This document shows positions 3,071-16,446 of a stretch of DNA of 64,000 bases, in pieces. Under the pieces are notes generated by a model. That model had not been told where the DNA came from, made no database searches, and saw only the letters and a program-made list of their open reading frames with translations. Both the position numbers and the translations under genes were made by a program. Source of the DNA: Thermoplasmatota archaeon (GTDB taxonomy: Archaea > Thermoplasmatota > Penumbrarchaeia > Penumbrarchaeales > Penumbrarchaeaceae); contig CBDDUX010000040.1 in assembly GCA_965234725.1 (NCBI GenBank), positions 1-64,000 on the forward strand, given 5' to 3'. Within the stretch, counting starts at the first letter, position 1. Each line of letters begins with the position of its first letter.

Positions 3071-3791
3071 ATGATTCTGCCTCCACCTGGAAATCCTGGC
3101 TACTTTTATTATAAAAAGATTTGAAGCGTCTCTCTCTTTTATTAAAAAATATTGGTACGATTTCCTTACAATCGGTGTCATAAATTAGAATAATGATATT
3201 TTAAAAAATATGACAATTAACATTATTTGATTTGATGTGAAATAATTATATTTTCGTCAATCTTTTTTAACCCATCAATAATTACAATTACGTTCATTAA
3301 TAAATGAAAATTTCGGAAAAATACGGTCATTCCATTAATAACAATTTCATCTGTAATTGTTTCCATTACACTTTAGTTAGAAAAAAATGGTTATCGTTAA
3401 TAAATAAAAGAGTTACTACTATATTGGCAAACACATGACACAGAACCTACTATTTTTTCCAGATCATTTAGTCTCCGATTTGTAAAAAGATTGTTGTTTC
3501 TTTTCAAAAGATGGATTCCTCTATTTGTATAGATCACTGTTAAATTTGAACAGAGTAAGGATCACTGGAGAAAGAGAAAATGAAGGATGAAAATCTACCA
3601 AATTCAAATGTGCGAAACGACTGATTTTTACTTTTTCCGTCCAATGTAGGAAAATTGTTTCTTACTTCACAACTAATTGGTATCGTGATATTTCAACCTT
3701 CTTTCCATCTCTGTATTCTTAAAAAGTTGATACCAAGGTAAAGGTGAAGGGTCCTTGAAATCTGGAAGTGGATGGAAGGAATTCTGATCGA

Positions 3792-4094
3792 TCATTGAAG
3801 CAAGCCCTGCTTTCCCTTCGGAAAGACAAGGCCCAGGACGATTAATATTGGGATCATCACCAATGCAAGATAGAAAACACCTTTTCCTGAAAGTGGATAG
3901 TCCCAGTATCTTGTGATCCAGTATATGAGCCCCATTATTATCAGGAAAAGGACTCCGGAGATAATGTACCGGAAGGTCCTTTCCCTTTCATAAGGCCAGT
4001 CTTTTCCTCCCCTTGGGTATTTCATACCCAGGTAACCAAGAATGAGGGCCGCTATGACCGCTATTACCAATGATCCGGTAATCAGAGGATCCAA
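3792..4094 (-). CDS. Small membrane protein (about 3 TM helices), last gene of the Ig-vWA-AAA operon
   Basis: Three hydrophobic segments; TTG start directly follows the TGA stop of the AAA gene (TGA-TTG). Confidence 0.7.
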   Translation of the reverse strand: MDPLITGSLVIAVIAALILGYLGMKYPRGGKDWPYERERTFRYIISGVLFLIIMGLIYWITRYWDYPLSGKGVFYLALVMIPILIVLGLVFPKGKQGLLQ

Positions 4095-7000
4095 TCAGGA
4101 ACCCTCCCAATTGGTCAATTCATCGATCTCGTGTTCTTTCTCCGATAGATCGTGGACAGCCTGTTTCTTTTCTCCGAATGCAGGTTCGGGTGGGGAAGGC
4201 GGAGGAATATTCTTCCTGTCCGAACCTTTCACTCCTTGCTTTTTTTCTTTTTCCGATCCATCAGGTTGACCTTTCTTCTTCCTCTCGTATTCCTTTCTCA
4301 GCTTGTCGTACATCTTGATCATTTTCGTTGTAATGGAAGGTTTGATCTCGCTTAGTACCTCATCCATATCTTCCATTTTTATCGGCTGTGGTTTTCTGGT
4401 TTCCAGGGCCCTCTCGAGGCCCAGGGAGGATGCTTCCCTCACAAGATTTGCCAGGTCAGCTCCCGAGAAACCCTTGGTCCTCTTTGAGAGGCTGATGATA
4501 TCAATATCATCGGAGGCGAACTTGCCCTTCAGGTGGATCTTGAGGATCTCCTTCCTGGAAACCTCGTCTGGCGGTGGGACATAGATGATCTTGTCGAACC
4601 TTCCAGGCCTCATAAGCGCAGGGTCAACGAGATCGGGCATATTGGTGGTTGCCACTACGATGATACCCTCCGCATCATCCATGCCGTCCATCTCCGAAAG
4701 CATTATTGAAAGGACCCTTGGTGTGACATCATCGGTGGAGTAGAAGTCCCTTCTCTTTGCTATGGCGTCAATTTCATCAAGGAAGAGAATGCAGGGAGAT
4801 TTTGCCCTGGCCTCCTCGAACAGAGATGCGATCAACCCTTCCGATTCTCCGTACCATTTGGACATCACATCGGAACACTTCACTCCGATCATTTCCACAT
4901 TGAGGTCCGAGGCTACAGCTCTGAGCATCAATGTCTTACCGCATCCGGGAGGTCCGAACAGCATTAGACCCTTTGATGGCTTCACACCATATTTCGTTGC
5001 CATATCCGGTTCCAGTAAGGGTACCATGAGCGCGTTCCTGACCTCCCTTTTAACGTCTTCTAGTCCTCCGATCTCGTTGAATGAAGTTCTTCTGAAACCT
5101 ACCATATCCGAAACCTTCTTGCCAACATCGGAGCTTCCAATCCCCTCGACTCCATACTGCAGTGGAAGGGCTTCCTCCCCGAACGACCTGAGATTGAAGG
5201 CCACTATTGAAGCCGGGATACAGCCTATGATCGCAATAATTGTCCAGATGGTGAATTCTGCCTCCGCCCAGAGGATGGATATGATCCCGAAAATTGCAAC
5301 GATAGCTCCGGGAACGGCTTTCAGAGCCCATTTTCCGATTGAGGCCTTGATCTCGAGAATATCTCCATCCCATTTCTTCAATATGAGGAAACCGAGGACC
5401 ATGGCAGCTGCCCACCCCAGAAGTCCGAAGAAGGGCACTATGGATCCCATGGTATCGAGTAATACTGTGGATATCACCTTGGTATTGACAGTGCTCAGAC
5501 CCGCGATCTCACTCACCACGTCGATCGGACTCCATCCCGATTCCACACTTTTGGAAAATGTTACGAAACTCCGATCATGCTCGGGTGATGCCAGGAATGA
5601 GAACCATACGAAGTTGCCGGACGGAGCGATAACAAGCATGAAAATTCCTGCTGTAACTAGTACCAGGGTCCCCATGAAAAGAGAAATGGTAACAGCGGCG
5701 ATCAGGGGTACTGCAAACCCGAATCCGAATCCGGCAAGGAAAACCGCCAGCAGGGAAAAATATGCATATCTCCAGTCGAAGAAACCGCCTACCATCACAA
5801 TGAGGGAATAGATCAGGAACACCCATCCGAACTCGTTGGATTGATATGCAACGGCCGCGGTTACCAGTACAGATAGTAGAAGCATCGAGATGTAGGGAAG
5901 CTTCCATGAGAGAGCGGTAATGAACGCTGAAAGGATCAGGACCATCCACCATGGATAGAACGGTGCGAAGAATAGACCCAGAATACTTAATAAGGCAAAT
6001 GCACAGGTCCTTAAGACGAGCCCCTTTCTCTCCTCATCCCTGAAAAGGGTTTCAATCCATGTGTACTTATCATCTCCTTCACTTTTCTTCCTGGCCCTCT
6101 TCTTCCTTTCGTTCAACCTTTCCCTGATCTCCTTGGCCTTGACAGCTCCGAAACCACTCGCGGTTACTCCGGCAATTACAATTACAAAACCTATCAATTC
6201 CAGATATTGCGGTCTTTCCTGTTCATCCATATCCACGGAGAATGACTCTTCGTTGATATCGAACCTGAAACTGAACGTCCAATCCGGTCTGGGCACACCC
6301 ACCTCGAAATTGTACACCTCATCATGGTATGTCACCTTGATACCGTAGGTTCCGTTATATACCGTTTGATTTGTAAGTGCGATCCCACCGACTGTCTCGG
6401 TCTCGTAGGAGTATGTCCCGTTGTAGAAGAGGACGGTTGCCCCGTCCGCCGGTCTTTGCTCGGCTTCATCTATGAGGGTCAGGATGATGAATCCCCTGTA
6501 TATTGGTACGCCAGGGGTGGGCATAGGATATGTGTAGACCTGAGAGCCGGATCTGACCAAATGATTGTAGCTGTCATAAGCCTCAACATGGAAGCTGATA
6601 ACGGATCCTTCAGGATAGGGAAGTATCGTGTATGTCATGTGGGTGTTGTTCACCCTTTTGAAATAGTTCACACCCTCCTGAGGGTCTCCATCCGGAAGAT
6701 TTAGTGTGTAGAAGATATCCGCTCTCTTGATGGATACGAGCGGATCCCTGGATGTGATATTGACATTGACTGACTGGCCGTTGATCGGCTCCTGGGGTCC
6801 CCAATCGAGATCGATGTTCAGGTCGAAATCATTTCCAGACCAGGATCCATTCATTACAACAGTATAGGAGTAGGTTGTGGATGTGAGGGGATGGTTCTTC
6901 TCATCATAGGCAATGATCTCGTAGTTTATTGTATACCCGCCGGGATAGCCGGGAATATCAACTTCCATCGTGGACTGGTCCACCCTATTGAACTGGAAAC

Positions 7001-7286
7001 CGCCTTTCGCGGATGTCATCCCTTCGAACGACCATGTGTAGCTGACATCCGCTGCATTAATGGTCTGGTTGTTGATGGTTTTTATCGATAGATGAAGAGG
7101 TTCGTTGTTCAGCGGACTCCTGTCATTGATGTGGTCAGGCGTCCTATCGACCTCTATCACCTCCTCGAAGACGTTGGTCTCCCATTCTGCTCCTGCATCC
7201 TCGCTCACGAGTATGAACGCAACCGTTGAAGCGAGTATCGTGAGCAAGACAATGGAAACTGCGGTATACGATCCATTTATTTTCAT
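4095..7286 (-). CDS. Membrane-integral AAA+ ATPase: signal peptide, extracellular Ig-like domains, about 10 TM helices and a single CDC48-like AAA module
   Basis: Walker A GPPGCGKT, pore loop SKWYGESE, Walker B ILFLDEID, second region of homology ATTNMPDLVDPALMRPGRFD, lid GFSGADLANLVREA. N-terminal signal peptide, two homologous beta-rich repeats and a long hydrophobic block. Confidence 0.9.
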   Translation of the reverse strand: MKINGSYTAVSIVLLTILASTVAFILVSEDAGAEWETNVFEEVIEVDRTPDHINDRSPLNNEPLHLSIKTINNQTINAADVSYTWSFEGMTSAKGGFQFNRVDQSTMEVDIPGYPGGYTINYEIIAYDEKNHPLTSTTYSYTVVMNGSWSGNDFDLNIDLDWGPQEPINGQSVNVNITSRDPLVSIKRADIFYTLNLPDGDPQEGVNYFKRVNNTHMTYTILPYPEGSVISFHVEAYDSYNHLVRSGSQVYTYPMPTPGVPIYRGFIILTLIDEAEQRPADGATVLFYNGTYSYETETVGGIALTNQTVYNGTYGIKVTYHDEVYNFEVGVPRPDWTFSFRFDINEESFSVDMDEQERPQYLELIGFVIVIAGVTASGFGAVKAKEIRERLNERKKRARKKSEGDDKYTWIETLFRDEERKGLVLRTCAFALLSILGLFFAPFYPWWMVLILSAFITALSWKLPYISMLLLSVLVTAAVAYQSNEFGWVFLIYSLIVMVGGFFDWRYAYFSLLAVFLAGFGFGFAVPLIAAVTISLFMGTLVLVTAGIFMLVIAPSGNFVWFSFLASPEHDRSFVTFSKSVESGWSPIDVVSEIAGLSTVNTKVISTVLLDTMGSIVPFFGLLGWAAAMVLGFLILKKWDGDILEIKASIGKWALKAVPGAIVAIFGIISILWAEAEFTIWTIIAIIGCIPASIVAFNLRSFGEEALPLQYGVEGIGSSDVGKKVSDMVGFRRTSFNEIGGLEDVKREVRNALMVPLLEPDMATKYGVKPSKGLMLFGPPGCGKTLMLRAVASDLNVEMIGVKCSDVMSKWYGESEGLIASLFEEARAKSPCILFLDEIDAIAKRRDFYSTDDVTPRVLSIMLSEMDGMDDAEGIIVVATTNMPDLVDPALMRPGRFDKIIYVPPPDEVSRKEILKIHLKGKFASDDIDIISLSKRTKGFSGADLANLVREASSLGLERALETRKPQPIKMEDMDEVLSEIKPSITTKMIKMYDKLRKEYERKKKGQPDGSEKEKKQGVKGSDRKNIPPPSPPEPAFGEKKQAVHDLSEKEHEIDELTNWEGS

Positions 7287-7297
7287 CAGTTATCCCC

Positions 7298-8686
7298 CTA
7301 TGATCCTACTCCTACCTTCTGTTTTTCGATGATCTTCTTCTTGATGGAAGTTCGTTTTGCGATCCCAAGTGCTGCTAAACCGGCAAGCATGTACTCGACA
7401 GGTACTGTAGCCGTTTGACCAATGGTAACGGGAGTGACATTCGGTGTGGCAGTAATCACCGGTGCTACGTTAACAGAAGGTGCCACAACCGGTACAGATG
7501 GTGGAGGGGGTAATGGAGCCGGTGTAACAGCCGGCGGAGGAGGCGGAGGCGGTGGAAGGGGCGGAGGTAGGGACCTGATAACATTCACATAGAAAGACGG
7601 TATCTCTACCGATTCGTTCCTGCCCCCCCAATCCACGTACACTACTTCGCTCTCATCCTTGAGGACCCTTGTTCTCCCCTCACCATTTTGTGATATTACC
7701 TGAAAACTCACTGACCAGTTCTGGCCGATCTTTAAATGGGGTATGGACCAGGAAAGGACCGTTCCCGTTGTAGTATTGATGTTGAATCCATCGGTGATCG
7801 TTACAGAATCGGGAAGGTATTCCAGTTCTTCGGACAGGAAAGCATTTGCCGTGATATTCATGCCAGCGGTGTAATTGTAGAATTGGTCCGAGATCTTCAT
7901 GTAGATCCGAACGAGTTCTTCCGCGGTCTCAGCCTTGTAGAACTGACCGTTAGTATATTCCGCCATCCATCTCAAGGCCTTCTCATCCAGTTCGGGTCCT
8001 AGACCGATCGTATATAATTTCACCCCGTTGGATACCAGGCGGTCCATCTGGGGTATGGTAACGTTTGCCGATGATGGATCAGGAACTCCATCCGTGAAGA
8101 AGAGGGCGATCCTCTGATTCTCTTCGTTGCCGAATGTCTCGTACTCCGTATTTACAAGGTCGATGGCATCCTGGAAATTGGTCTGCCCCTGGGGAGCGGC
8201 CTTGGCCAGGGCATCCAGGTCGGCATGTACCTGGACATAGGCCGATGAAAGATGATGGAAAATGGATGCTGTATTGTCGAATTTCACTATCGCAGCCCTA
8301 TCGAAAGGAGAGATCATATTATTGATATATTCATGCGCTGCAAGGATCCTCAGCACCTGACCATCGTATGTCTCCAGGGAGCCGGAATGGTCCATGATGA
8401 AGACCACATCCTGGGGTGCGAGAGTGATGCCTTTGGTACCTGTTCCCTGTACGGTCAAAGTAACGGATGTATTGTCCGGTTGGTTCTCTGATGTGGACCT
8501 CCAGAAGGATTCATCAGATGTGGATAGCCTGGGAAGCAGGTAACCCCCGCCTATCTGAGCCGTTTCGCCATTGGTTTCTTCAGCAATTGAAGGTATCAAT
8601 AAGAATGAGAGGATCATCAGGACTAAGATCGGCATCCTGAGGCCAATTCGGAGGTTCCATCCCCTGAGATGATCTTTCACTGCCAT
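7298..8686 (-). CDS. Secreted/surface von Willebrand factor A (vWA) domain protein with polyproline linker
   Basis: Signal peptide, MIDAS motif DVVFIMDHSGS...GQTNF...FFTDG, YTIGLG...MAEYTNGQFY. Poly-Pro tract, then a short hydrophobic segment and basic tail. AAGGAGTG RBS upstream. Confidence 0.9.
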   Translation of the reverse strand: MAVKDHLRGWNLRIGLRMPILVLMILSFLLIPSIAEETNGETAQIGGGYLLPRLSTSDESFWRSTSENQPDNTSVTLTVQGTGTKGITLAPQDVVFIMDHSGSLETYDGQVLRILAAHEYINNMISPFDRAAIVKFDNTASIFHHLSSAYVQVHADLDALAKAAPQGQTNFQDAIDLVNTEYETFGNEENQRIALFFTDGVPDPSSANVTIPQMDRLVSNGVKLYTIGLGPELDEKALRWMAEYTNGQFYKAETAEELVRIYMKISDQFYNYTAGMNITANAFLSEELEYLPDSVTITDGFNINTTTGTVLSWSIPHLKIGQNWSVSFQVISQNGEGRTRVLKDESEVVYVDWGGRNESVEIPSFYVNVIRSLPPPLPPPPPPPPAVTPAPLPPPPSVPVVAPSVNVAPVITATPNVTPVTIGQTATVPVEYMLAGLAALGIAKRTSIKKKIIEKQKVGVGS

Positions 8687-8737
8687 TTTGTAATTACACT
8701 CCTTTCAATGATTCATTATTTTTCTTACCTGATTATC

Positions 8738-8763
8738 AGGGGAGGAAAGACATTTCCTCCCCT
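8738..8763 (-). promoter_or_regulatory. Intercistronic stem-loop (perfect 11-bp stem, 4-nt loop) at the stop of the Ig-repeat gene
   Basis: + strand AGGGGAGGAAA-GACA-TTTCCTCCCCT; no U-tract follows on the minus strand. Confidence 0.6.
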
Positions 8764-11700
8764 CAATTTGGCCCATTTTGATCCCAGTTTGTGTCCTCTG
8801 GTACGGTCTCCTTTTTCTTGAACGGATTTCTGATCTTGCGCTTCTCTTCGTTCTTCTGAGGCTCATCCGTCTTTTCCTTTGGATTCATGGGTTTAGGTGT
8901 CGAGCTCTCCTTCGAAGATTCCACGGGCTGGTCGGGATTTTCTTTTTTCATTCCCTCTCCTTTTGCCCACTTTGTGATCACACCAGTATAGAATAGAACA
9001 AAGATCAGGATCACCAGGATGATGAAAAGAATTAGCCAGATCAATGGCAGATAATCGGTGAACCTTTGTATGAAAGTATCTTTTTCCTTGTATTCCTTGA
9101 CACTGATCATTCCGGATGAGACCCTCTCATTTCCCAGGCTGTCGGTGGACCTGATCTGGAAAATATGAGACCCTCCATTCACACCGGATGTGGGCCAGAA
9201 CAGGATGAATTTATTGGGATGGGAGGAATTCGCATCAGGTGTCATCTCCCTCCATCCCTGGGAGTCGATGTTGATCATAACATTTTCAACTCCTGAGGGA
9301 TCTTTCACAATAGCCTCGAAAACGACCGATGTCCCCTCTTTTACCTCGCCTGTTTTGATCTCCTGGTCACCCTTGATCCAGTAGTAATCCAGAGTTATTT
9401 CCGGTCCAGTGTTGTCAACCTTGATCCCGTATGAGGATTCCATATGATTCCCCGCCCTATCTATACATTGGACCTTCAGGAGGTGGTCTCCATCGCTTAC
9501 AGTCTTTGTATCTAACAGATATTCATAGTAAAGACCGCCTTCTCCTCTGTATATCTCAAAGGCCGGTCTATCGTCAATCGATAATTGGACCTGCCTGATC
9601 CCAATGGAATCATAAGCATAGAACCTTAAGGTCTGGACCCCTGCAAATGATTGGCCTGGAATAATTGTTGCCTGTGAAATAATGGGCGCAGTATTGTCAA
9701 CAACCACTTCAACATCGAAATCGGTCATGTGACCTGCCATGTCAACGGTCCTTATTGTTACCGTATGTCTGCCATCGATCACCTTGGTGGTGTTCCATGT
9801 TTTGGTAACATCGAACCAGGTTGTCCCATCTATCGCGTACTTGACAACCCCGGGAAATTCATCATCGGAATATGCCCTGACAACGAATATACCGCTGATA
9901 AGCTGGTCCTTTACCGGAGCTTCGACCGTAAGTTCAGGATTGTTGTTGTCAACATTGAACTCAACCAATGATGTGTCCAATGTCTTGCCGGAAAGGTCCA
10001 ATACGGTTGCGTTCATCTTATAAGTGCCGTCAGTGAGTGTCCTTGTATCCATCGTATATTCATAGTACCCTGATAGAGTATTCAGGGACATCCGTTTCTC
10101 CATTCCGGCCAATTTCAATATAACATGTTTAATGCCGACCTCATCGGTAGCGGATATCCTGAAGGTGTATGTTCCCTCGATGAACTCCCCATTATTAGGG
10201 CCAGTGATCCCGATCTCCGGATAATTGTTGTCAACTATGACTATAATAAATTCGGTAGTGACATGCCCCGCCAGATCGGTCGCCCTAATCGTTACTTCAT
10301 GGTGGCCATCCGGAACCATGGCCGTATTCCACCCTATTGAAACTGGTTGCCAGGAAGCTCCGTCTATGTTGTAGTCAGTTCCCTTCTTGAAGACATCACT
10401 GTTCACAACGTCGAAGAAGAACAACCCTGAGACGATCTCACCTTCATTGGGTGAGTTTATGTTGATCGTGGGAGCTCTGTTGTCAACATTGAAGAAAATC
10501 GGACCAAAAGTGTAGGACTTGCCTGTGAGGTCGAACGCAATTGCGGTTACATTCCTGACCCCATCCTCTCCGGCACCCCATGTTATCGTGTTTGAAGAAT
10601 ATTCATAGTATCCGGTCTGGGCGTTGAAAGGTACCTTGGCATCCAAGTCGTAAACATGTATTGTAACATAGTCTATCCCAACTATGTCAAAGGCGGTAAC
10701 TCGAATGGTGATCACTCCCTCCACGAACTCGCTGGATACTGGAGAGGTTATTGTGCAAGTAGGAGCAATATTATCCATGAAAATGCTAAAACTGACAGAC
10801 GAGGACCATCCTGCACTGTCGTATGCATTGAATGTTATAGTATGGGTGCCATCGTTAAATATCGATGTATCAAGGAGGAAAGAAGCATTGGCCCATTCTC
10901 CGATCATATCATAGGATAGGGTTACTGGCTCGTTTTCATCGATCCTGTATGTAATACGATTGAGGTGAACATCCCTTCCCAGAATATTGATGGATGTCTT
11001 TCCTGAGAGAATATACCCGTTGCCCATATCGTTTAACACGATCTCGGGGGAATGGGTATCCACATTGAACATTACAGGTCCTATCCGGAGAACCTTTCCC
11101 GACAGATCTTGGATCGTAACAGTGATGTTGTAATCCCCGTCAGGGATCAGTGTCACATCGGTTCTGAACTCGTAATACCCTGTAGCTGAATTATAACTCA
11201 TTGAGAGGTCACCGGTGATACCGGGGAAATCCAGTCCGATCATGACATGATCAATACCCACGATGTCAGATGCGACGACCCTGAATACCGGTGTCAATTC
11301 GGTTACAAAAGCATTGGCTCCGGGGTATGATATCGTTCCAACCGGTAAATAGTTGTCAATTATCACGTTTACAGCTGTTGTGGTGGTATGCCCCGCGTCA
11401 TCAAGGGATCTGATGGTAATCAGATGATTTCCATCTCCAAAAGTTGAAGTGTTCAATGGGACGGTTTCATCAACCCAACCTGTTCCATCAACGCTGTACT
11501 CCGTCCTGTTCAGGAAGACATCTGTTGTGTTCACGGATATCAGAATATATCCCTCCAGGAATGCACCAGGTAGAGGATCAACAACTCTCAATACGGGTGC
11601 GTTGTTATCGATCCTGAATGTAACGGGAGAGGAGATCGATATTTTACCACTCAGGTCATGACCTGATGCAGTACACTGGTAGATACCATCGGTCTTCAGA

Positions 11701-14700
11701 GTGGTATCGGTTGTGAACTCAAAGTATCCGGAAGATGAGGAAAAGGTCGCGAGGAAATCTGTTCCGAAAACACTCAAATAGACCCTATCGATCCCCACGG
11801 AATCGATAGCCGAAATCCTGAATGTATATGCTTGGTCCAAGAACTCATCCGGAGATGGTGAGTTTATCGTAATGACTGGATAGGTATTGTCCACTATCAG
11901 TGTCATTGTTTGTTTGATATCATGGCCGGAACTATCCCTCGCCCTGAAAATAACACTATGGCTGCCGTCGAGTAGATTGTTTGTTAACCACAATTCAGTA
12001 ATGGGATTCCACGTTCCTCCATCAACAGAATAGCCTACATCCAGGAGGAATCTGTCAGTTGCTGTAACATTGAAAGTTACGTTTCCTGAAACATAATCCC
12101 CTGTTTGTAATCCATTGACGGTCATCTGGGGTGCGGAATTATCTATCTTGAAGCTGACCCAAGAGGATTGGGCTACCTTTCCACTCAGATCGTATGATAT
12201 CGCCCTGCAAGAGTAATTTCCATCCGTTCGAATGGAAGTATCAGTTGTACACTCATAGTAGCCAGATGAACCAGAGAATGTTGCTGTAAAGTTGACGTTG
12301 AATACGTTCAGATATACACGGTCTATTCCAACAGAATCAGATGCGGAAAGACGGAATGTATATGTTCCTTCAACGAACTCATCGGCCACCGGGCTATTGA
12401 TGGAGCAAACGGGAACGTTATTGTCCACGATCAATGTCAGGGTTTGAGTTGTTGTGTGGCCAGCCTGGTCCCGCGCCCTGATCGTAATTATATGAGATCC
12501 GTCCAGAATGGTTGTTGTATCCCATGTCTGTGTTGAATTGACCCATCCTCCTCCATCGATAGAATACATGACGTCCTTCAGGAATGCATCTGATACATTC
12601 ACGGTGAAGCCCAGCGTACCGGAGATGTAATCACCGGTCTGGAGACCAACGACCGCCAATTCCGGTGCAAAATTATCCACCCTGAAAGTCACTTCAGTTG
12701 AATTCGTATTCTTACCCGAGAGATCATATGCCACTGCAGTAACATTATAGATGCCATCAGTAACCGTCAGTGTATTGAATTGATATTCGTAATACCCTGT
12801 CTGCTTGTTCAGGGTTGTCTGGACACTGTCCGAGAACATTTCAAGGACCACCCTGTCAATTCCAACTGTATCGGTGGCTGATACCTGGAAAGAGAAAACT
12901 CTCTCGATGAATCTTCCGTTAAATGGGGATACCATGTTACAGGTGGGTTGGTTATTGTCCACAGTAAATGGAATTGATTGTTCTGTAAGGTGGGACGCCA
13001 TATCCTGGGATCTGACGAATAATGTATGGGATCCGTCCTGCAGGTCGGTTGTGTTGAGATGGACCCACCAATCAGGATCGGAACCCGAGAGGTTTTGCCA
13101 TCCTCCCGAATCTATCCTGTATTCCACCTTTTGAAGGAACAGATCCGATGAGGCAATTGAAAGATTGTAAATTCCCCCTATAATCTCTCCAGATTCGGGA
13201 GAGTTGATGGAAAGGGAAGGATCGTTATTGTCTATGTAGAAGGTTATCGTATCTGTATCAGTCAACTGATTGACGAAATCATAGGCCGTAGCGTATACGG
13301 TATAAGTTCCATCGGGCCTTGTCTGTGTTGAAACCGTATACTCATAAGATGATGTTATCGGATTGTATGGAAGAGTGATGGTATTGCCGAAGATGTTTAT
13401 ATCGACATGGCTCACTCCCACGGCATCTGTGGCCACTACTCTGAATGTGTATGATCCTTCGAGGTAGTTCCCGTCAATCGGTGAGTTGATATAAGCGGTC
13501 GGATTCGTATTATCCACGAAGATTGTTAGTGTGGATTCGCCTGTCAATCCAGCAGAATCCTTTGCCTCAATGGTCAGAGTATGGGTGCCGTCCGTTATCT
13601 GAGAGGTGTCATATGAACCGTTCCAGACATTGCCATCCCTGGTCAGTGGTATCCATGCGTTCTGGTCCACCTTGAACCTGGCTGATATGACATAGGAAGT
13701 CGTGTTGACAGATATGGGCATTACGGATGTGACATACGAACGGTCCAATGGTTTATTGATTATCGGATTCGGAGGCGAATTGGAAAGTGTGAAATTATTG
13801 GGCCCGTAGTTCGTAATTCCATCCGCAAAATCCTCAACAGTCACATTGAACCAGCAAGAGCCATCGGGAAAGCTGTATGTACTCACGGTCCTTTCCCAGT
13901 TCAGACTAGCCGCGTTATAATACAGATTCAATGTACCGGCCGTCTGCATCTTTCCACCAAAAGTTATCTTGACACTTTTAATCACTTCTGGGGTATCAGC
14001 CTTCACTTTGAAGGTGTAGGCTCCTCCGATAAGCTCGTTTGCTGTCGGAGCAATGATGTCCACGTTGATGGGTTCCTTGACCCTCAGAGTAATATTTGCA
14101 TATCTTACGAGAGTGCCATCCGAACCCTGAACCGAGAAGTTGTATGTCCCGACCGGTGTATTGGAAGCTGCCTCAATCATCATATTTGTGAAATCATTGG
14201 AAGAGCTGATTGGATTCGATGAGAAAGTTACGTTGAAATACTGCGAACCTGTATCCGGTGTCGCTGTCATGGTTACACTATTGGTGTAACTGTTGATCGT
14301 ATCCATTGTTAGACTATAAACAGCGTTTGAACCGGGAGATGTTACCTTGTATTCGGGATCGGCCGAGATGAAATAATCAGGATTCGTGGAAACCCGAAGC
14401 ATTACCTTCACTCCCTTTGTCTCCCCGGCGTAACCTGTGTCATTTCCATATACCATCAGATAATAGTTTCCGGCAGTAAGTGAGGAAGTCGTTGTAATAT
14501 TAAGGTATACACTTTCAGTCGAGGCACCATCTGTGTTCACAGAGTATCTGCTCAATGTTGCTGAAGCTCCGGATGGAGTGCTTGTATTTACGGATCCAGC
14601 CGTTTGCCATCTATAATGAAGGTCGATATCCTTGGTTATTCCGAACGAACTCACATCTATCTGATAGGAAGCATTCATCCCGGGTGCGATCAGATGCGAG

Positions 14701-15587
14701 GTGGGCTGGGCCCCCATCTCGAAATCGGAGGTGATCAGAATCGTATAATTGTTAGTGCTCGAGTCTTCGAAATTCTCGTCAATTACGCAGAGGCCGTAAT
14801 TGCCTGAGATCTCCGGGTCATAGGAGAAGCTCAGATCCTCTCCGCTGGATGATGCATGGTCGGATATCAATGCATTATCAGAGTTGCCTGAACCCCTGAA
14901 AAGATACATCGATAATTTTTCCGTGGGAGGAACAGAATATATGTCGAAATCATAGCTGCCTCCGGCATCAAGGTAAACATCGTACATGTTTACTATGGGG
15001 AGGTCTCCTCTAAGGGTACCATCATAAGTACCGGTCCCGTGGTCTTCGAAAAGGGAATACCTCCTCTCACCGATCACCAGATCGCCATTTGCATCAGGGT
15101 CAGATCCGTAAAGATCGGATGCGACAGTATGGTAATCGGACTCGATCCGGACCCCATCTGTCCAATCCTGACCGGTGAACTTAACCACTTTTGCATATTT
15201 GTAATTCCCTGTGTAGGTATGCCCGTCAATGACCACGAAATCTATCTCATCGCTTCCCTTCGTCGATGAAGAAATTGAATCATCCATCTCGTAATCGTCA
15301 TATGCGAAAAGATCGAAGTCCTCTCCGGGTTCCCGGTTCATTATTGCTACTGCCGTATATTCATTGGTCTTCGTGGGTACCTTGAACTCGAGCTCGTCGG
15401 GAATTGAAGTCCACCACCAACCGGTTGTATATATTCTGGCCGATCGGTCGTTCTTCAATGTTCCTCCCGGTTTTGTCTCGGCAACCGCATCCTCCGAAAT
15501 AAGGACCATAAAGGATGCGGCGATCAACAATGATACTCCGATCAGGGCAAACGATGCTTTAGAAAAATGGATTTTCAGATTTGACAT
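8763..15587 (-). CDS. Giant cell-surface protein with about 18 tandem bacterial Ig-like domains and a C-terminal TM anchor (2274 aa)
   Basis: Signal peptide, N-terminal beta-rich (PPC-like) domains, 17 DNxxP-type inter-domain linkers with DG.H/Y...A.D..G motifs. TM LPLIWLILFIILVILIFVLFY followed by a charged tail. Confidence 0.9.
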   Translation of the reverse strand: MSNLKIHFSKASFALIGVSLLIAASFMVLISEDAVAETKPGGTLKNDRSARIYTTGWWWTSIPDELEFKVPTKTNEYTAVAIMNREPGEDFDLFAYDDYEMDDSISSSTKGSDEIDFVVIDGHTYTGNYKYAKVVKFTGQDWTDGVRIESDYHTVASDLYGSDPDANGDLVIGERRYSLFEDHGTGTYDGTLRGDLPIVNMYDVYLDAGGSYDFDIYSVPPTEKLSMYLFRGSGNSDNALISDHASSSGEDLSFSYDPEISGNYGLCVIDENFEDSSTNNYTILITSDFEMGAQPTSHLIAPGMNASYQIDVSSFGITKDIDLHYRWQTAGSVNTSTPSGASATLSRYSVNTDGASTESVYLNITTTSSLTAGNYYLMVYGNDTGYAGETKGVKVMLRVSTNPDYFISADPEYKVTSPGSNAVYSLTMDTINSYTNSVTMTATPDTGSQYFNVTFSSNPISSSNDFTNMMIEAASNTPVGTYNFSVQGSDGTLVRYANITLRVKEPINVDIIAPTANELIGGAYTFKVKADTPEVIKSVKITFGGKMQTAGTLNLYYNAASLNWERTVSTYSFPDGSCWFNVTVEDFADGITNYGPNNFTLSNSPPNPIINKPLDRSYVTSVMPISVNTTSYVISARFKVDQNAWIPLTRDGNVWNGSYDTSQITDGTHTLTIEAKDSAGLTGESTLTIFVDNTNPTAYINSPIDGNYLEGSYTFRVVATDAVGVSHVDINIFGNTITLPYNPITSSYEYTVSTQTRPDGTYTVYATAYDFVNQLTDTDTITFYIDNNDPSLSINSPESGEIIGGIYNLSIASSDLFLQKVEYRIDSGGWQNLSGSDPDWWVHLNTTDLQDGSHTLFVRSQDMASHLTEQSIPFTVDNNQPTCNMVSPFNGRFIERVFSFQVSATDTVGIDRVVLEMFSDSVQTTLNKQTGYYEYQFNTLTVTDGIYNVTAVAYDLSGKNTNSTEVTFRVDNFAPELAVVGLQTGDYISGTLGFTVNVSDAFLKDVMYSIDGGGWVNSTQTWDTTTILDGSHIITIRARDQAGHTTTQTLTLIVDNNVPVCSINSPVADEFVEGTYTFRLSASDSVGIDRVYLNVFNVNFTATFSGSSGYYECTTDTSIRTDGNYSCRAISYDLSGKVAQSSWVSFKIDNSAPQMTVNGLQTGDYVSGNVTFNVTATDRFLLDVGYSVDGGTWNPITELWLTNNLLDGSHSVIFRARDSSGHDIKQTMTLIVDNTYPVITINSPSPDEFLDQAYTFRISAIDSVGIDRVYLSVFGTDFLATFSSSSGYFEFTTDTTLKTDGIYQCTASGHDLSGKISISSPVTFRIDNNAPVLRVVDPLPGAFLEGYILISVNTTDVFLNRTEYSVDGTGWVDETVPLNTSTFGDGNHLITIRSLDDAGHTTTTAVNVIIDNYLPVGTISYPGANAFVTELTPVFRVVASDIVGIDHVMIGLDFPGITGDLSMSYNSATGYYEFRTDVTLIPDGDYNITVTIQDLSGKVLRIGPVMFNVDTHSPEIVLNDMGNGYILSGKTSINILGRDVHLNRITYRIDENEPVTLSYDMIGEWANASFLLDTSIFNDGTHTITFNAYDSAGWSSSVSFSIFMDNIAPTCTITSPVSSEFVEGVITIRVTAFDIVGIDYVTIHVYDLDAKVPFNAQTGYYEYSSNTITWGAGEDGVRNVTAIAFDLTGKSYTFGPIFFNVDNRAPTININSPNEGEIVSGLFFFDVVNSDVFKKGTDYNIDGASWQPVSIGWNTAMVPDGHHEVTIRATDLAGHVTTEFIIVIVDNNYPEIGITGPNNGEFIEGTYTFRISATDEVGIKHVILKLAGMEKRMSLNTLSGYYEYTMDTRTLTDGTYKMNATVLDLSGKTLDTSLVEFNVDNNNPELTVEAPVKDQLISGIFVVRAYSDDEFPGVVKYAIDGTTWFDVTKTWNTTKVIDGRHTVTIRTVDMAGHMTDFDVEVVVDNTAPIISQATIIPGQSFAGVQTLRFYAYDSIGIRQVQLSIDDRPAFEIYRGEGGLYYEYLLDTKTVSDGDHLLKVQCIDRAGNHMESSYGIKVDNTGPEITLDYYWIKGDQEIKTGEVKEGTSVVFEAIVKDPSGVENVMINIDSQGWREMTPDANSSHPNKFILFWPTSGVNGGSHIFQIRSTDSLGNERVSSGMISVKEYKEKDTFIQRFTDYLPLIWLILFIILVILIFVLFYTGVITKWAKGEGMKKENPDQPVESSKESSTPKPMNPKEKTDEPQKNEEKRKIRNPFKKKETVPEDTNWDQNGPN

Positions 15588-15726
15588 TAGATTCCCCCTT
15601 TAAACATTATTATCGGAGACTTTATTACTTTCAGGGCCTCCGCTCTATTTTCAAATTGAAACTGATCGTATATAATTTGCTTTGTAAAAATCTCAATTAA
15701 TAATACAAAGAAATTTTAGTTTTCAC

Positions 15727-16446
15727 TCAGCGGTAATTTGGCATTTCAAGATGGATCTCTTCTTCTTCCACATCCTCCACACCCCTTCCAGTCAGCTTGA
15801 AATGGACTTCTTCACCAGTAGGCATGGACCTGTGCTTGACCACGGTAGCTTTGCGGATCCCCTTTTCTCCCACTTTATCTATCCTTATGATCACCTTGCA
15901 GTTGTGGGAAAGGGAATGACCTCCGATCGGTCTTACATCTCCAGGCCCCATGGAGGAATAGACTTGTGTAGTTATCAGAACCGGTATGTCCAGTTTCCTT
16001 GAGATGTTCATCAGGTCCAGCAGTATCTGGGAGATCTCCCTTCTTCCATCCTCATCCCTTCCCGAACCAAGGTTCATCCTGTAAAAGACCGTGGCTGAAT
16101 CCAGGACCACCAGACCGATATGAAGGTCTTTCTCAACGAGCTTCATTGTGGACCGCATGGCATCTTTCAGCTGGTTTGAGTTCAGAGGTTGGAAGAAAAG
16201 GACCTCTCTGGATATGTTCTCGTGGTCATCTTCACCGCATATCTGCTGGAACCTCTCCATAGATACACCCTCAGTGTCGATGTAAATGACCTTCTGACCA
16301 GCTTGGACCACATTCCTTGTGACCTGGAGGCAGATATTGGTCTTACCTGAACCTCCCTCACCATAGAGCTGAGTTATAGCGGAGCTTTCTATGCCCCCTC
16401 CCATTATCCTGTCAATGGCTTCACACCCTATGGGGACCCTGCTCAA
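15727..16446 (-). CDS. radB: DNA repair and recombination protein RadB
   Basis: Short RecA-fold without N-terminal domain, Walker A GEGGSGKT, VIYIDTEG, LVVLDS, and the KHR motif (VVKHRS) diagnostic of RadB. Confidence 0.93.
   Translation of the reverse strand: MSRVPIGCEAIDRIMGGGIESSAITQLYGEGGSGKTNICLQVTRNVVQAGQKVIYIDTEGVSMERFQQICGEDDHENISREVLFFQPLNSNQLKDAMRSTMKLVEKDLHIGLVVLDSATVFYRMNLGSGRDEDGRREISQILLDLMNISRKLDIPVLITTQVYSSMGPGDVRPIGGHSLSHNCKVIIRIDKVGEKGIRKATVVKHRSMPTGEEVHFKLTGRGVEDVEEEEIHLEMPNYR

What the first reader, a model, noticed from the sequence alone, without database searches (positions are those of the whole stretch)
3792..15587. Candidate novel surface machine: Ig stalk + vWA adhesin + membrane-integral CDC48-like AAA motor + small membrane protein
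Seen: four co-oriented genes with gaps of 76, 11 and 0 nt, and SD-like sites before the first three. All four products are exported or membrane proteins. Established: known AAA-vWA partnerships use cytoplasmic MoxR-clade ATPases, and vWA domains on Ig stalks act as MIDAS adhesins. Here the vWA is exported and the ATPase is a classical-clade (CDC48/Vps4/Msp1-like) unfoldase on the cytoplasmic side of its own polytopic membrane domain. Inference: an ATP-driven apparatus that binds external proteins, particles or cells and pulls a substrate through or out of the membrane, or retracts or recycles the adhesin. I do not recognise this as a described system.
Basis: partly seen in the sequence, partly recalled or inferred. 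Interest (0 to 1): 0.85.

Follow-up and report, generated by a model that had tools for sequence, protein, structure and literature searches.

The report
Membrane AAA motor with adhesin fibre
An uncultured sediment archaeon carries a four-gene operon, kept in the same order across its whole class, that joins a membrane-embedded protein-pulling ATPase to a giant surface fibre and a metal-dependent adhesion protein; I found no description of such a machine, and what it pulls is still unknown.

Summary
Four minus-strand genes, with gaps of 76, 11 and 0 nt, encode a 2274-aa Ig-repeat type I membrane protein, a 462-aa exported vWA protein with an intact MIDAS, a 1063-aa protein and a 100-aa 3-TM protein. 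The 1063-aa protein reads signal, three beta-sandwich exo domains, polytopic membrane domain, then one classical Cdc48-D2-like AAA module.

The order Ig-vWA-AAA-small recurs in 29 of the 37 related loci that reach far enough upstream (48 fetched). It persists down to about 35% AAA identity. The small gene follows the AAA gene in 44 of 44 loci that hold its 3' end.

The membrane domain matches no Pfam family and no clear solved fold. It is rare: 47 hits among 1.84 billion representatives.

New here: the vWA protein ends in a conserved anchor module with a tail of fixed length. That module survives even where the ectodomain is replaced.

Best reading (0.4): the AAA ring pulls, from its membrane-facing side, on the tails of its co-encoded surface partners. 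No transcript, binding or activity data exist, and the complex prediction never ran.

I found no description in print. This scan met the same module before in other Thermoplasmatota genomes (e1-1122236, e1-5506572).

The parts
8763..15587 (-). Gene 1: 2274-aa giant Ig-repeat type I membrane protein (the fibre). It reads: signal-like N-terminus, about 560-aa head with no family match, about 16 alternating Big_13/Big_7 domains, TM 2180-2198, 76-aa cytoplasmic tail.
   Evidence: Big_7 3e-73, 8 stretches; Big_13 1.5e-53, 6 stretches; 15 'VDN' domain boundaries spaced 94/84 aa, TM score 3.43; no Pfam match for residues 1-520.
8766..8993 (-). Cytoplasmic tail of the Ig protein, ending in an acidic-Trp-acidic motif (..EDTNWDQNGPN).
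   Evidence: such a motif lies in the last 25 residues of 14 of 27 Ig orthologs and 19 of 46 AAA orthologs, against 20 of 599 other ORFs of the same loci.
8739..8762 (-). Perfect 10-bp GC-rich hairpin directly after the Ig stop codon, followed by TGATAAT. Possibly an attenuator or mRNA-stability element between the structural gene and the downstream genes.
   Evidence: sequence.: -21 kcal/mol; hairpins with different sequence but the same place and the same trailing motif in same-genus loci L042 and L043.
7298..8686 (-). Gene 2: 462-aa exported vWA protein (the adaptor/adhesin). It reads: signal, vWA with MIDAS, beta-rich domain, anchor module.
   Evidence: VWA 4.8e-13, residues 93-261. D99, S101, S103, T169 and D199 invariant in 18 orthologs.
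7301..7561 (-). C-terminal anchor module of the vWA protein (residues 376-462). It reads: Pro-rich stalk, weakly hydrophobic 'PVEY-MLAGLAALG' segment, basic tail ending KQKVGVGS.
   Evidence: identity to the window protein is 0.72 in the TM and 0.60 in the tail, against 0.57 in the vWA domain; this is the only part shared with the non-vWA partner of variant loci (hhalign probability 97.3%, E 2.5e-11); the tail is exactly 21 residues after the '..LG' motif in 24 of 34 partner proteins; weak hydropathy.
4095..7286 (-). Gene 3: 1063-aa membrane-integral AAA ATPase.
6222..7196 (-). Exo domain of the AAA protein (residues 31-355): three beta-sandwich domains (44-142, 158-252, 268-344).
   Evidence: pLDDT about 85-90. 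D1 matches the N-terminal beta-sandwich of lmo2446 (4kmq_A, Z 11.0, rmsd 2.3, 95 aligned) and, at Z 10.5-10.6, an amylase N-domain and a CBM; D3 matches small beta-sandwich chains (3e8v_A, Z 10.4, rmsd 2.1, 75 aligned); all 8 N-glycosylation sequons of the protein lie at residues 4-311.
5154..6221 (-). TM1 (about 360-382), a basic cytoplasmic linker and the polytopic 'PFYPWW / AYQS' membrane domain (410-711).
   Evidence: invariant P48 F49 P51 W53 Q88 G93 and others, with no invariant Cys, His, Asp or Ser; pLDDT 85-93 within the full-length model; no Pfam match; no clear fold match; 47 hits in 1.84 billion representatives.
4275..5090 (-). Single classical AAA module plus lid (residues 733-1004): Walker A GPPGCGKT, Walker B ILFLDE, pore loop KWYG, SRH RPGRFD.
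   Evidence: (CDC48 profile positions 450-731); the TM-linked AAA modules form one clade (100/100).
4098..4274 (-). Low-complexity C-terminal tail of the AAA protein, ending ..DELTNWEGS (acidic-Trp motif; no HbYX).
3792..4094 (-). Gene 4: 100-aa 3-TM protein. Its TTG start abuts the AAA stop codon, and it carries a conserved 'KYPRGxxDWP' loop.
   Evidence: P27, W33, P92 invariant in 19 orthologs; it follows the AAA gene in 44 of 44 loci that hold the AAA 3' end; found in 32 of 401 genomes of the phylum, on the same contigs as the AAA gene.

Best explanation
This is a conserved cell-envelope module of Thermoplasmatota (class EX4484-6, 'Ca. Penumbrarchaeia', and some neighbouring lineages).

Its clients or partners are co-encoded single-pass surface proteins. 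One is an adaptor whose ectodomain is normally a MIDAS-type vWA adhesion domain. The other is a giant Ig-repeat fibre.

Proposed mechanism: the AAA ring sits under the membrane with its N-terminal (substrate-entry) face towards the bilayer, as in FtsH and Msp1. It engages the short cytoplasmic tails of the partners, first of all the fixed-length, highly conserved tail of the adaptor's anchor module. It uses ATP to pull on them. The pull would extract, retract, reposition or turn over the adhesive assembly from inside the cell.

Shown: gene order and its conservation, domain anatomy, intact catalytic, pore-loop and MIDAS residues, and the modular conserved anchor.

Inferred: the hexamer, physical contact, direction of pull, and identity of the substrate.
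For: 1. Linkage. Ig-vWA-AAA occurs in order in 29 of the 37 loci whose upstream flank can be read, out of 48 fetched. The same holds in unnamed relatives down to 35% AAA identity. The small gene follows the AAA gene in 44 of 44 loci. Starts are overlapping or abutting.

2. Co-occurrence. The TM domain is in 38 of 401 genomes of the phylum and the small protein in 32 of 401, in largely the same genomes and on the same contigs. All parts are single copy in the window's own genome.

3. A working unfoldase. Walker A and B, the aromatic pore loop and the Arg fingers are intact and invariant. The best solved relatives are VAT and p97, matched over D2. The AAA fold matches ATAD1/Msp1, FtsH, FtsHi and Vps4 at Z 13-14.

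4. Polarity. The AAA module is C-terminal to the membrane domain, so its N-face looks at the membrane. That substrates enter classical AAA rings from this face is recalled knowledge of FtsH and Msp1.

5. A candidate handle. The adaptor's TM and tail are at least as conserved as its vWA domain. The tail is exactly 21 residues in 24 of 34 proteins. This anchor module is the only part retained when the vWA ectodomain is replaced by an unrelated one in variant loci. Its hydrophobic segment is weak, as expected for a helix that sits against a partner or can be extracted.

6. A shared motif. An acidic-Trp motif ends both the Ig tail and the AAA's own tail (14 of 27 and 19 of 46, against 20 of 599 background ORFs).

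7. Loss as a unit. One same-genus genome has lost Ig, vWA and nearly all of the AAA gene in a single clean deletion. No vWA ortholog lies elsewhere in that genome.
Against: - There is no direct evidence of binding. The complex prediction could not be run.
- There are no transcript data.
- There is no protease domain and no HbYX motif, so the fate of an extracted protein is unexplained.
- A tail of fixed length fits a permanent docking contact as well as a threaded substrate.
- The acidic-Trp motif is confined to some lineages. Others carry a different pair of tail motifs.
- Two chromosome-level MAGs have AAA plus small without adjacent Ig/vWA (L058, L066).
- The f26 lineage has the TM-AAA without vWA or the small protein.
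- In the G004 deletion the small gene survives alone.
- The AAA part of the AF2 model is of low confidence (pLDDT about 45-65).
- The congruence of the vWA and AAA trees (18 of 21 splits) is what shared vertical descent alone would give.
Confidence: 0.4

Rival explanations
1. Biogenesis or scaffold reading. The AAA complex is an assembly chaperone or a permanent basal body. It folds, inserts, spaces or holds the fibre and the vWA adaptor, as MoxR-vWA chaperone systems and the predicted arCOG01314 envelope system are thought to do. It does not extract or retract them.
For: - The fixed 21-residue tail and the conserved TM of the adaptor fit a stable docking geometry.
- The exo domain is conserved and can be a separate subunit or exist as paralogous single-pass proteins. 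That suggests an extracellular ring or platform.
- There is no protease or proteasome-docking motif.
- The nearest described analogue is a predicted assembly/secretion system with vWA-Ig proteins and small 2-3 TM proteins (PMC5898192; passages read).
Against: - Classical-clade AAA modules with an intact aromatic pore loop are, from recalled knowledge, threading motors rather than static scaffolds.
- All three large proteins carry N-terminal signal-like segments, so export itself probably needs no dedicated motor.
- The module is dispensable in one close relative.
Confidence: 0.25
2. Transmembrane signalling or regulated release. The membrane domain plus exo domain senses an external state, such as ligand bound to the vWA or the fibre. 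The ATPase converts this into a cytoplasmic event, for example release of a membrane-tethered regulator.
For: - In 3 of the 4 variant loci whose upstream genes I read (L080, L084, L085), a membrane-anchored HTH (HVO_0163/MarR-type) protein with an outside Ig-like domain lies just upstream of the partner-exo-TM-AAA-small set.
- Distant homologues of the membrane domain are fused to a KaiC/RAD55-type ATPase (P0055; hhalign probability 97%).
- A weaker hit is fused to an adenylate/guanylate cyclase domain (P0068, E 1.8e-4).
Against: - No regulator gene lies in the window's cluster or in the 29 standard loci.
- The cyclase hit is weak, and hydrophobic profiles give spurious matches.
- The membrane domain has no invariant charged or ligand-binding residues.
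Confidence: 0.1
3. General membrane-protein quality control. The protein is an FtsH-like dislocase for the whole membrane proteome. It merely sits next to two abundant surface-protein genes.
For: - The layout (membrane anchor followed by a classical AAA) is FtsH/Msp1-like.
- AAA plus small occurs without adjacent Ig/vWA in L058 and L066.
Against: - The gene order is conserved across a class, with abutting or overlapping starts.
- A dedicated anchor module travels with the AAA gene even when the ectodomain changes.
- The module was lost as a unit in one relative, which a housekeeping dislocase would hardly allow.
- It was not found in most Thermoplasmatota searched: 363 of 401 genomes had no hit.
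Confidence: 0.1
4. Surface motility. The fibre is a 'leg' and the AAA ring a motor that cycles it, giving gliding or crawling on particles.
For: - A giant membrane-anchored fibre, a MIDAS adhesin and an ATP motor sit in one operon.
- There is a weak NCBIfam similarity of the vWA domain to the gliding adhesin CglB (E 0.0035, 16.4 bits against a cut-off of 200).
Against: - The CglB hit is far below its cut-off.
- There is no cytoskeletal or track component in the cluster.
- Nothing suggests a cyclic power stroke rather than a single pull.
- The organism is uncultured, and no motility is reported in the passages of PMC12220078 that I read.
Confidence: 0.05

Closest known systems
VAT / Cdc48 / p97 (type II classical AAA unfoldases; PDB 5vc7, 5g4f, 5c18)
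   Same: The AAA module is closest to their D2 ring (E about 1e-129 to 1e-118, CDC48 profile positions 450-731). The Walker motifs, aromatic pore loop and Arg fingers are the same.
   Different: - It has one AAA module, not D1-D2.
- It has no N-terminal double-psi-barrel domain.
- It scores 280.5 bits against a family cut-off of 802.65.
- It is membrane-integral.
- It has no HbYX tail.
- It forms its own clade, apart from the organism's own Cdc48 D1 and D2.
FtsH and Msp1/ATAD1 (membrane-anchored classical AAA dislocases)
   Same: The layout is a membrane anchor N-terminal to a classical AAA module, so the ring's entry face looks at the membrane. The AAA fold matches ATAD1 (Z 13.7), Msp1 (Z 13.6) and FtsH (Z 13.2). 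This is the model for how I think it works.
   Different: - It has no M41 protease: FtsH family score 224.9 against a cut-off of 600, and no Peptidase_M41 hit.
- The anchor is not 1-2 helices.
- It has dedicated operon partners.
Predicted arCOG01314-MoxR-vWA 'secretion / membrane-remodelling' system of archaea (Makarova, Galperin, Koonin 2015, PMC5898192; passages read)
   Same: An archaeal operon combines an ATPase, an exported vWA protein with an Ig-like part, Ig-like surface or S-layer-like proteins and small 2-3 TM proteins.
   Different: - That system uses a soluble MoxR/GvpN-type AAA+ (COG0714) and a flavodoxin-like membrane-anchored protein.
- Here the ATPase is classical-clade and is itself the polytopic membrane protein.
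- That system is itself untested.
Membrane-embedded tandem-AAA proteins of Micrarchaeota
   Same: The membrane domain is homologous: hhalign probability 98%, E 2.3e-13, with the FYPWW and AYQS motifs kept. It is fused to classical AAA modules.
   Different: - Only the first 130 or so columns align.
- There are two AAA modules and no exo domain.
- I did not examine the partners in that phylum.
MBA, 'membrane-bound AAA' of Sulfolobus (named in PMC3493965, which cites a 2009 paper I could not read)
   Same: It is an archaeal classical AAA protein anchored in the membrane, of unknown function.
   Different: From recall only, MBA has two TM helices flanking a coiled coil, not a polytopic domain. 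No Sulfolobus-like hit appeared among the 47 relatives of the membrane domain, but those rows carry no names, so this is not a test.
Integrins and bacterial Lap-type giant-adhesin control (functional analogies, recalled)
   Same: A MIDAS vWA head, Ig-like legs, a single TM and short conserved cytoplasmic tails through which the cell interior controls an adhesin.
   Different: There is no homology beyond the vWA and Ig folds. Control here would be by an ATP-driven unfoldase, not by talin-type adaptors or a periplasmic protease.

Membership tests
Classical AAA clade (Pfam PF00004 group) | Walker A and B, aromatic pore loop 1, second region of homology with Arg fingers, AAA_lid_3 | tested here: met
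   PF00004 at 2.3e-41 and AAA_lid_3 at 1.3e-10. GPPGCGKT, ILFLDE, KWYG and RPGRFD are present and invariant in 31 orthologs.
Cdc48 / VAT / p97 | Tandem D1-D2 AAA modules behind an N-terminal substrate/cofactor domain; curated family score | tested here: not met
   There is one AAA stretch. TIGR01243 scores 280.5 bits against a cut-off of 802.65 and matches profile positions 450-731 only. The AAA module falls in a separate clade from the genome's own Cdc48 D1 and D2.
FtsH | AAA module followed by an M41 zinc protease; curated family score | tested here: not met
   TIGR01241 scores 224.9 bits against a cut-off of 600. No Peptidase_M41 appears among the Pfam hits. After the lid comes only a 59-residue low-complexity tail.
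MoxR-vWA chaperone pairs | MoxR-type AAA+ ATPase (COG0714; AAA_3/AAA_5 type), soluble, paired with a vWA protein | tested here: not met
   AAA_5 scores 19.6 bits against a cut-off of 22, whereas PF00004 scores 141.7 bits. The ATPase is membrane-integral.
vWA domain with MIDAS | DxSxS, a Thr and an Asp that together coordinate a metal ion | tested here: met
   VWA at 4.8e-13. D99, S101, S103, T169 and D199 are invariant in 18 orthologs. Assigning these residues to MIDAS positions is from recalled knowledge.
arCOG01314 predicted secretion system (PMC5898192) | Membrane-anchored flavodoxin-like arCOG01314 protein plus a MoxR ATPase in the operon | tested here: inconclusive
   The MoxR part is not met. 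No arCOG library is at hand, so arCOG01314 itself could not be scored. None of the four proteins has a Pfam hit other than Ig, vWA and AAA.
Msp1 / ATAD1 | A single N-terminal TM anchor directly followed by one AAA module | tested here: not met
   About 730 residues precede the AAA module: an exo domain and about ten helices. Only the AAA fold is alike (Z 13.6-13.7).
MBA (membrane-bound AAA of Sulfolobales) | Architecture as published in 2009 (recalled: two TM helices around a coiled coil, one AAA) | not testable with these tools
   It is only named in PMC3493965. The original paper is not in the library, and I held no reference sequence.
Archaeosortase-type C-terminal sorting signal (PGF-CTERM and kin) | Short signature motif, a TM helix and a few basic residues at the very C-terminus, removed on sorting (recalled) | tested here: not met
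   The vWA C-terminus has no PGF motif. It carries a conserved 21-residue tail ending KQKVxVGx, which is longer and more conserved than such signals. The membrane domain has no invariant Cys, His or Arg.
IetA/IteA anti-phage AAA | Curated family score and a partner protease | tested here: not met
   NF042959 scores 127.1 bits against a cut-off of 510. The PADLOC IetA hits cover the AAA module only (759-953), with none for the other proteins.

The most novel reading that the evidence does not exclude
The module is an ATP-driven transmembrane winch. A Cdc48-type ring reels in the tail, the weak TM helix and the proline-rich stalk of the vWA adaptor through or along the PFYPWW membrane domain. 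This retracts or tensions a fibre tens of nanometres long, together with whatever its MIDAS site has caught. It would be a polypeptide-level counterpart of pilus retraction, and the first force-transducing adhesin machine built on an unfoldase. Homologous membrane domains in Micrarchaeota, and fused to KaiC-type rings in Nezhaarchaeales, would then mark a wider and unrecognised class of 'ring ATPase on a membrane conduit' machines in archaea.
Probability: 0.15. Interest if true: 0.9.

Novelty: new variant of a known kind. Interest (0 to 1): 0.72.

Why it matters
Membrane-anchored classical AAA motors such as FtsH, Msp1 and Bcs1 are central to membrane-protein homeostasis in bacteria and organelles. 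Almost nothing comparable is known in archaea.

It is locked across a whole class into an operon with a MIDAS adhesin and a giant fibre.

If the ring acts on the tails of these partners, there are two consequences. It would be a new way for a cell to control its surface from inside. It would also give a concrete, testable substrate for an archaeal membrane AAA protein.

The class is uncultured. PMC12220078 reports it at high relative abundance in a protein-amended sediment enrichment. An adhesion or capture device for particles or polymers would bear on how these cells feed.

The conserved anchor module also offers a sequence tag for finding further clients.

Tried and rejected
**Runs that gave no result**
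- Complex prediction was never accepted. The job was AAA 355-725, the small protein, and vWA 415-462 as partner. One search gave no usable answer. There is no result of any kind.
- Expression: no RNA holder was listed for window 3700-9000, so co-transcription is untested.

**Searches that found nothing useful**
- Pfam gave nothing for the exo domain, the membrane domain, the small protein, the Ig head or the vWA protein's beta-rich domain, even at E up to 1.
- The ESM Atlas gave no usable hit.
- Fold search with the membrane domain alone (model pLDDT 64.5) gave a best Z of 7.7 (rmsd 5.6, 119 aligned) to a designed helical protein. That is below what helical bundles reach by chance. It does not show that the fold is new.
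- Foldseek on the full model returned only AAA hits.
- PADLOC gave AAA-module hits only.
- Seven paper searches gave no description of the module. I read the main-text passages of the class paper PMC12220078; they do not hold the words AAA, von Willebrand, adhesin, S-layer or surface protein. I did not open its supplements, which may list the orthogroups.

**Ideas dropped**
- RadB and the 372-aa gene upstream as operon members. That synteny holds only within the family, and the G004 deletion leaves them intact.
- A foreign island. GC content is like the surroundings, and descent looks vertical.
- A shared 'SEDAxAE' signal-peptide motif of the Ig and AAA proteins. It is not conserved in orthologs.
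- The membrane domain as a sortase-like enzyme. It has no invariant catalytic-type residues.
- Tree congruence as evidence of interaction. Kin share phylogeny, so it is not.

Full report
**1. The observation**

One search lists four minus-strand ORFs at the stated coordinates:

| ORF | Length | Start codon |
|---|---|---|
| 15587..8763 | 2274 aa | ATG |
| 8686..7298 | 462 aa | ATG |
| 7286..4095 | 1063 aa | ATG |
| 4094..3792 | 100 aa | TTG |

The gaps are 76, 11 and 0 nt. G-rich SD-like sites precede the first three starts.

Pfam finds the following:
- Big_7 (8 stretches) and Big_13 (6 stretches) in the giant protein;
- VWA at residues 93-261 of the second protein;
- AAA at 774-904 plus AAA_lid_3 in the third protein;
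- nothing in the small protein.

Hydropathy and an AlphaFold model support exported or membrane locations for all four.

The neighbours are ordinary genes. Upstream on the same strand lie a Rad51/RadB-like gene and an unassigned 372-aa gene. Then come a divergent 594-aa gene that I read as arginyl-tRNA synthetase from its sequence (not scanned) and an aIF2-beta/TRAM gene. Further large surface proteins sit on both sides. GC content does not set the cluster apart.

**2. Anatomy of the AAA protein**

The full-length model (31-sequence alignment, mean pLDDT 73) shows these parts in order:
- an N-terminal helix;
- three beta-sandwich domains (44-142, 158-252, 268-344; pLDDT about 85-90);
- a long helix at 360-398 that crosses the membrane and continues as a basic cytoplasmic stretch;
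- a helical membrane domain at 410-711 (pLDDT 85-93);
- the AAA module, modelled with low confidence.

All 8 N-glycosylation sequons of the protein lie in residues 4-311. This fits an outside exo domain.

The AAA module has the following features:
- It carries GPPGCGKT, ILFLDE, the KWYG pore loop and RPGRFD. These are invariant across 31 orthologs.
- Its best solved relatives by sequence are Thermoplasma VAT and p97, matched over their D2 module.
- By fold it matches ATAD2, p97, Vps4, ATAD1/Msp1, FtsHi and FtsH at Z 13-14.
- It fails the curated scores of Cdc48, PAN, FtsH and CdvC.
- In a tree it forms its own clade (100/100, 14 rows), apart from the genome's own Cdc48 D1 and D2 and two other AAA paralogs on contigs C7 and C8.

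- It has no Pfam match even at E up to 1.
- It has no Atlas hit.
- It has no clear solved fold (best Z 7.7 with a moderate-confidence model).
- Its invariant residues are Pro, Phe, Trp, Gly and one Gln, in the motifs 'PFYPWW' and 'AYQSxEFGW'. There are no catalytic-type residues.
- A profile search of 1.84 billion representative proteins found 47 hits at E up to 0.001, and 25 at E up to 1e-30.
- Of the 20 hits that I scanned, 13 carry one or two classical AAA modules, some of them without an exo domain.

Two distant hits are worth noting:
- A Micrarchaeota AAA protein: hhalign probability 98%, E 2.3e-13, with both motifs kept.
- A Nezhaarchaeales protein in which the domain is fused to a KaiC/RAD55-type ATPase: probability 97%.

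The domain thus appears to be a membrane base for ring ATPases.

**4. Conservation of the gene cluster**

*Among relatives.* The first 720 residues of the AAA protein are found in 30 of 41 genomes. The four outgroup genomes of the phylum lack it.

*Across 401 genomes of the phylum.*
- The membrane domain is in 38. These are most of the class, one genome of family f13, 6 of 9 genomes of f26, and one doubtful hit with a stop codon.
- The small protein is in 32, on the same contigs, and never in f26.

*A scan of one genome per GTDB species* gave 48 loci. All are titled as Thermoplasmatota-type MAGs, and two pairs of loci come from the same MAG. The map sorts them as follows:

| Loci | Arrangement |
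|---|---|
| 29 | Ig, vWA, AAA in order |
| 6 | vWA then AAA, with the contig ending before an Ig gene could be seen |
| 5 | cut inside the AAA gene |
| 6 | a variant type (section 6) |
| 2 | 8.8 kb or more of upstream DNA without Ig or vWA (L058, L066) |

The small gene follows the AAA gene in 44 of the 44 loci that hold its 3' end. These loci overlap with the 20 unnamed loci, which show the same picture, so the two sets are not independent.

Two further points:
- In the genome of L066, an Ig-like gene and a vWA gene lie together elsewhere. The vWA gene there runs into a stretch of N.
- In the window's own genome every part is single copy.

**5. The vWA adaptor and its anchor module**

The MIDAS residues are invariant in 18 orthologs.

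The C-terminus has three parts:
- a proline-rich stalk;
- a short, weakly hydrophobic segment with invariant Pro, Tyr, Leu and Gly and a near-invariant Glu;
- a basic tail ending KQKVxVGx.

Three observations single this module out:
- The TM and tail are at least as conserved as the vWA domain: identity to the window protein is 0.72 and 0.60 against 0.57, and among distant orthologs 0.47 and 0.43 against 0.42.
- The tail after the '..LG' motif is exactly 21 residues in 24 of 34 partner proteins. The other ten have 36-45 residues. Read by eye from the printed tails, most of those keep a similar 'KEGVGMRAG'-type motif early in the tail.
- In 4 variant loci (L080, L082, L084, L085) the gene in the adaptor's place encodes a 431-441-aa exported protein with no vWA domain. 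It has no Pfam match (3 of the 4 scanned). L084's has no PDB sequence match. All four carry the same stalk, segment and tail. For L084, hhalign finds only those 56 columns alike (probability 97.3%, E 2.5e-11).

An ectodomain that can be swapped on a constant anchor argues that the anchor is what couples to the constant core, that is, the AAA protein and the small protein.

**6. Variants**

- *Second AAA module.* Many lineages add one in the same chain. Family f8 adds it as a separate gene between the AAA and small genes. These second modules are long-branched.
- *Split exo domain.* In the six variant loci the exo domain is a separate single-pass protein of about 294-308 aa, or at least lies in a separate ORF. 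In 3 of the 4 whose upstream genes I read (L080, L084, L085), a membrane-anchored HTH protein lies just upstream.
- *Family f26.* The TM-AAA-AAA gene is preceded by two 630-750-aa single-pass proteins. They are weakly similar to the exo domain (blastp E from 0.008 to 2e-11) and share a conserved '...KR[IV]TL' C-terminus. Nearby lies a giant CarboxypepD_reg-repeat protein. There is no vWA and no small protein.

The recurring theme is a ring ATPase on this membrane domain together with single-pass exported partners that have conserved cytoplasmic ends.

**7. Tails of the fibre and of the motor**

The Ig protein's 76-residue cytoplasmic tail and the AAA protein's own C-terminal tail both end in an acidic-Trp-acidic motif. 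The motif lies in the last 25 residues of 14 of 27 Ig orthologs and 19 of 46 AAA orthologs. Among other ORFs of 150 aa or more in the same loci, spurious ones included, the count is 20 of 599.

In another lineage both tails instead carry Met/Leu-Glu-Ser-type acidic motifs. The pairing suggests a common docking site. It is lineage-limited and untested.

**8. A natural deletion**

In a same-genus genome (G004, 83% complete), the RadB-Ig intergenic region runs up to about 20 nt before the Ig start. It then joins directly to the last 45 or so codons of the AAA gene, followed by an intact small gene. No vWA ortholog was found elsewhere in that genome; the best hit is E 2.3e-6.

Either the lineage or part of its population has lost the three large genes as one unit. 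An assembly artefact cannot be excluded.

**9. Mechanism**

Because the AAA module follows the membrane domain, the N-terminal face of the ring must look at the bilayer. In FtsH and Msp1, from recall, substrates enter from that face and are pulled towards the cytoplasm.

I therefore favour pulling on partner tails (confidence 0.4). The adaptor's anchor is the prime candidate handle. Its helix is weakly hydrophobic, and its tail of about 20 residues sits at the length that, as I recall, FtsH needs to start on a membrane substrate.

The outcome could be extraction and turnover, retraction, or tensioning of the vWA-fibre assembly.

The main rival (0.25) is a permanent basal body or assembly chaperone, which the fixed tail length fits equally well. 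The lesser rivals are:
- signalling (0.1), prompted by the HTH neighbour and the KaiC and cyclase fusions;
- general quality control (0.1);
- motility (0.05).

**10. Comparison and novelty**

The nearest relatives of the parts are VAT/Cdc48 for the AAA module and generic vWA and Ig domains for the rest.

The nearest working models are FtsH and Msp1.

The nearest described system is the predicted, untested arCOG01314-MoxR-vWA envelope system (PMC5898192; passages read). It uses a different, soluble ATPase clade.

An archaeal 'membrane-bound AAA' group is named in PMC3493965. Its source paper was not readable, so membership could not be tested.

Seven full-text searches found no description of this module.

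Earlier notes of this scan report related findings on other genomes:
- the same four-gene module in other Thermoplasmatota (e1-1122236, e1-5506572);
- membrane-embedded tandem AAA proteins in Micrarchaeota (e1-1356208, e1-921683).

**11. What is missing**

There are no binding, expression or activity data. The complex prediction never ran, and no RNA run was listed.

Noticed in passing
L041 (G004:C15) 18430-18700, compared with window 15540-15740 and 4080-4260: A same-genus genome has a clean deletion of about 11.5 kb. It runs from about 20 nt before the Ig start codon to about 45 codons before the end of the AAA gene. The AAA 3' end and an intact small gene are left directly behind RadB. No vWA ortholog lies elsewhere in that genome.
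   Followed up: partly
window 8739-8762 (minus strand): A perfect 10-bp GC-rich hairpin follows the Ig stop codon directly and is followed by TGATAAT. Same-genus loci L042 and L043 have hairpins of different sequence at the same place with the same trailing motif. More distant loci mostly lack it.
   Followed up: partly
L080 5540-6532, L084 6789-7778, L085 6307-7710: In variant loci a protein lies just upstream of the partner/exo/TM-AAA/small genes. It has a signal-like N-terminus, an Ig-like or CarboxypepD_reg-like domain and two winged-helix (HVO_0163_N, MarR-type) domains. It is a possible membrane-tethered transcription factor.
   Followed up: no
P0055 (557 aa), P0068 (469 aa), P0057/P0080: Distant homologues of the PFYPWW membrane domain are fused to other partners: a KaiC/RAD55-type ATPase in a Nezhaarchaeales MAG, classical AAA modules in Micrarchaeota, and (weakly, E 1.8e-4) an adenylate/guanylate cyclase domain.
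   Followed up: partly
L034 4889-8823, L039 4560-8692 (family f26): Two tandem 630-750-aa single-pass proteins, weakly similar to the AAA protein's exo domain, end in a conserved '...EAEEKR[IV]TL' C-terminus. They precede a TM-AAA-AAA gene. A giant CarboxypepD_reg-repeat protein lies nearby.
   Followed up: partly
window 281-3181 (-), 20283-24227 (-), 27414-31466 (-): Three more large membrane-anchored or exported proteins lie in the window. One is a 966-aa NosD/beta-helix protein with a FIMAH domain. One is a 1314-aa PKD protein whose cytoplasmic end reads like a zinc ribbon (CPSC...CPNC). One is a 1350-aa Peptidase_C25 (gingipain-family) protein with Big_13 and PKD domains. This fits a protein-degrading, particle-attached way of life.
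   Followed up: no
window 16443-17561 (-): A 372-aa protein with no Pfam match overlaps the start of the RadB-like gene by 4 nt. It is conserved next to RadB within the family. It is a possible RadB partner and is unrelated to the finding.
   Followed up: no
L090 (G401:C1) 8318-11877: In one chromosome-level MAG an Ig-like gene (724 aa) and a vWA gene (438 aa) lie about 2 Mb from the TM-AAA/small pair. The vWA gene runs into a stretch of N, so either a rearrangement or a scaffolding problem is possible.
   Followed up: partly
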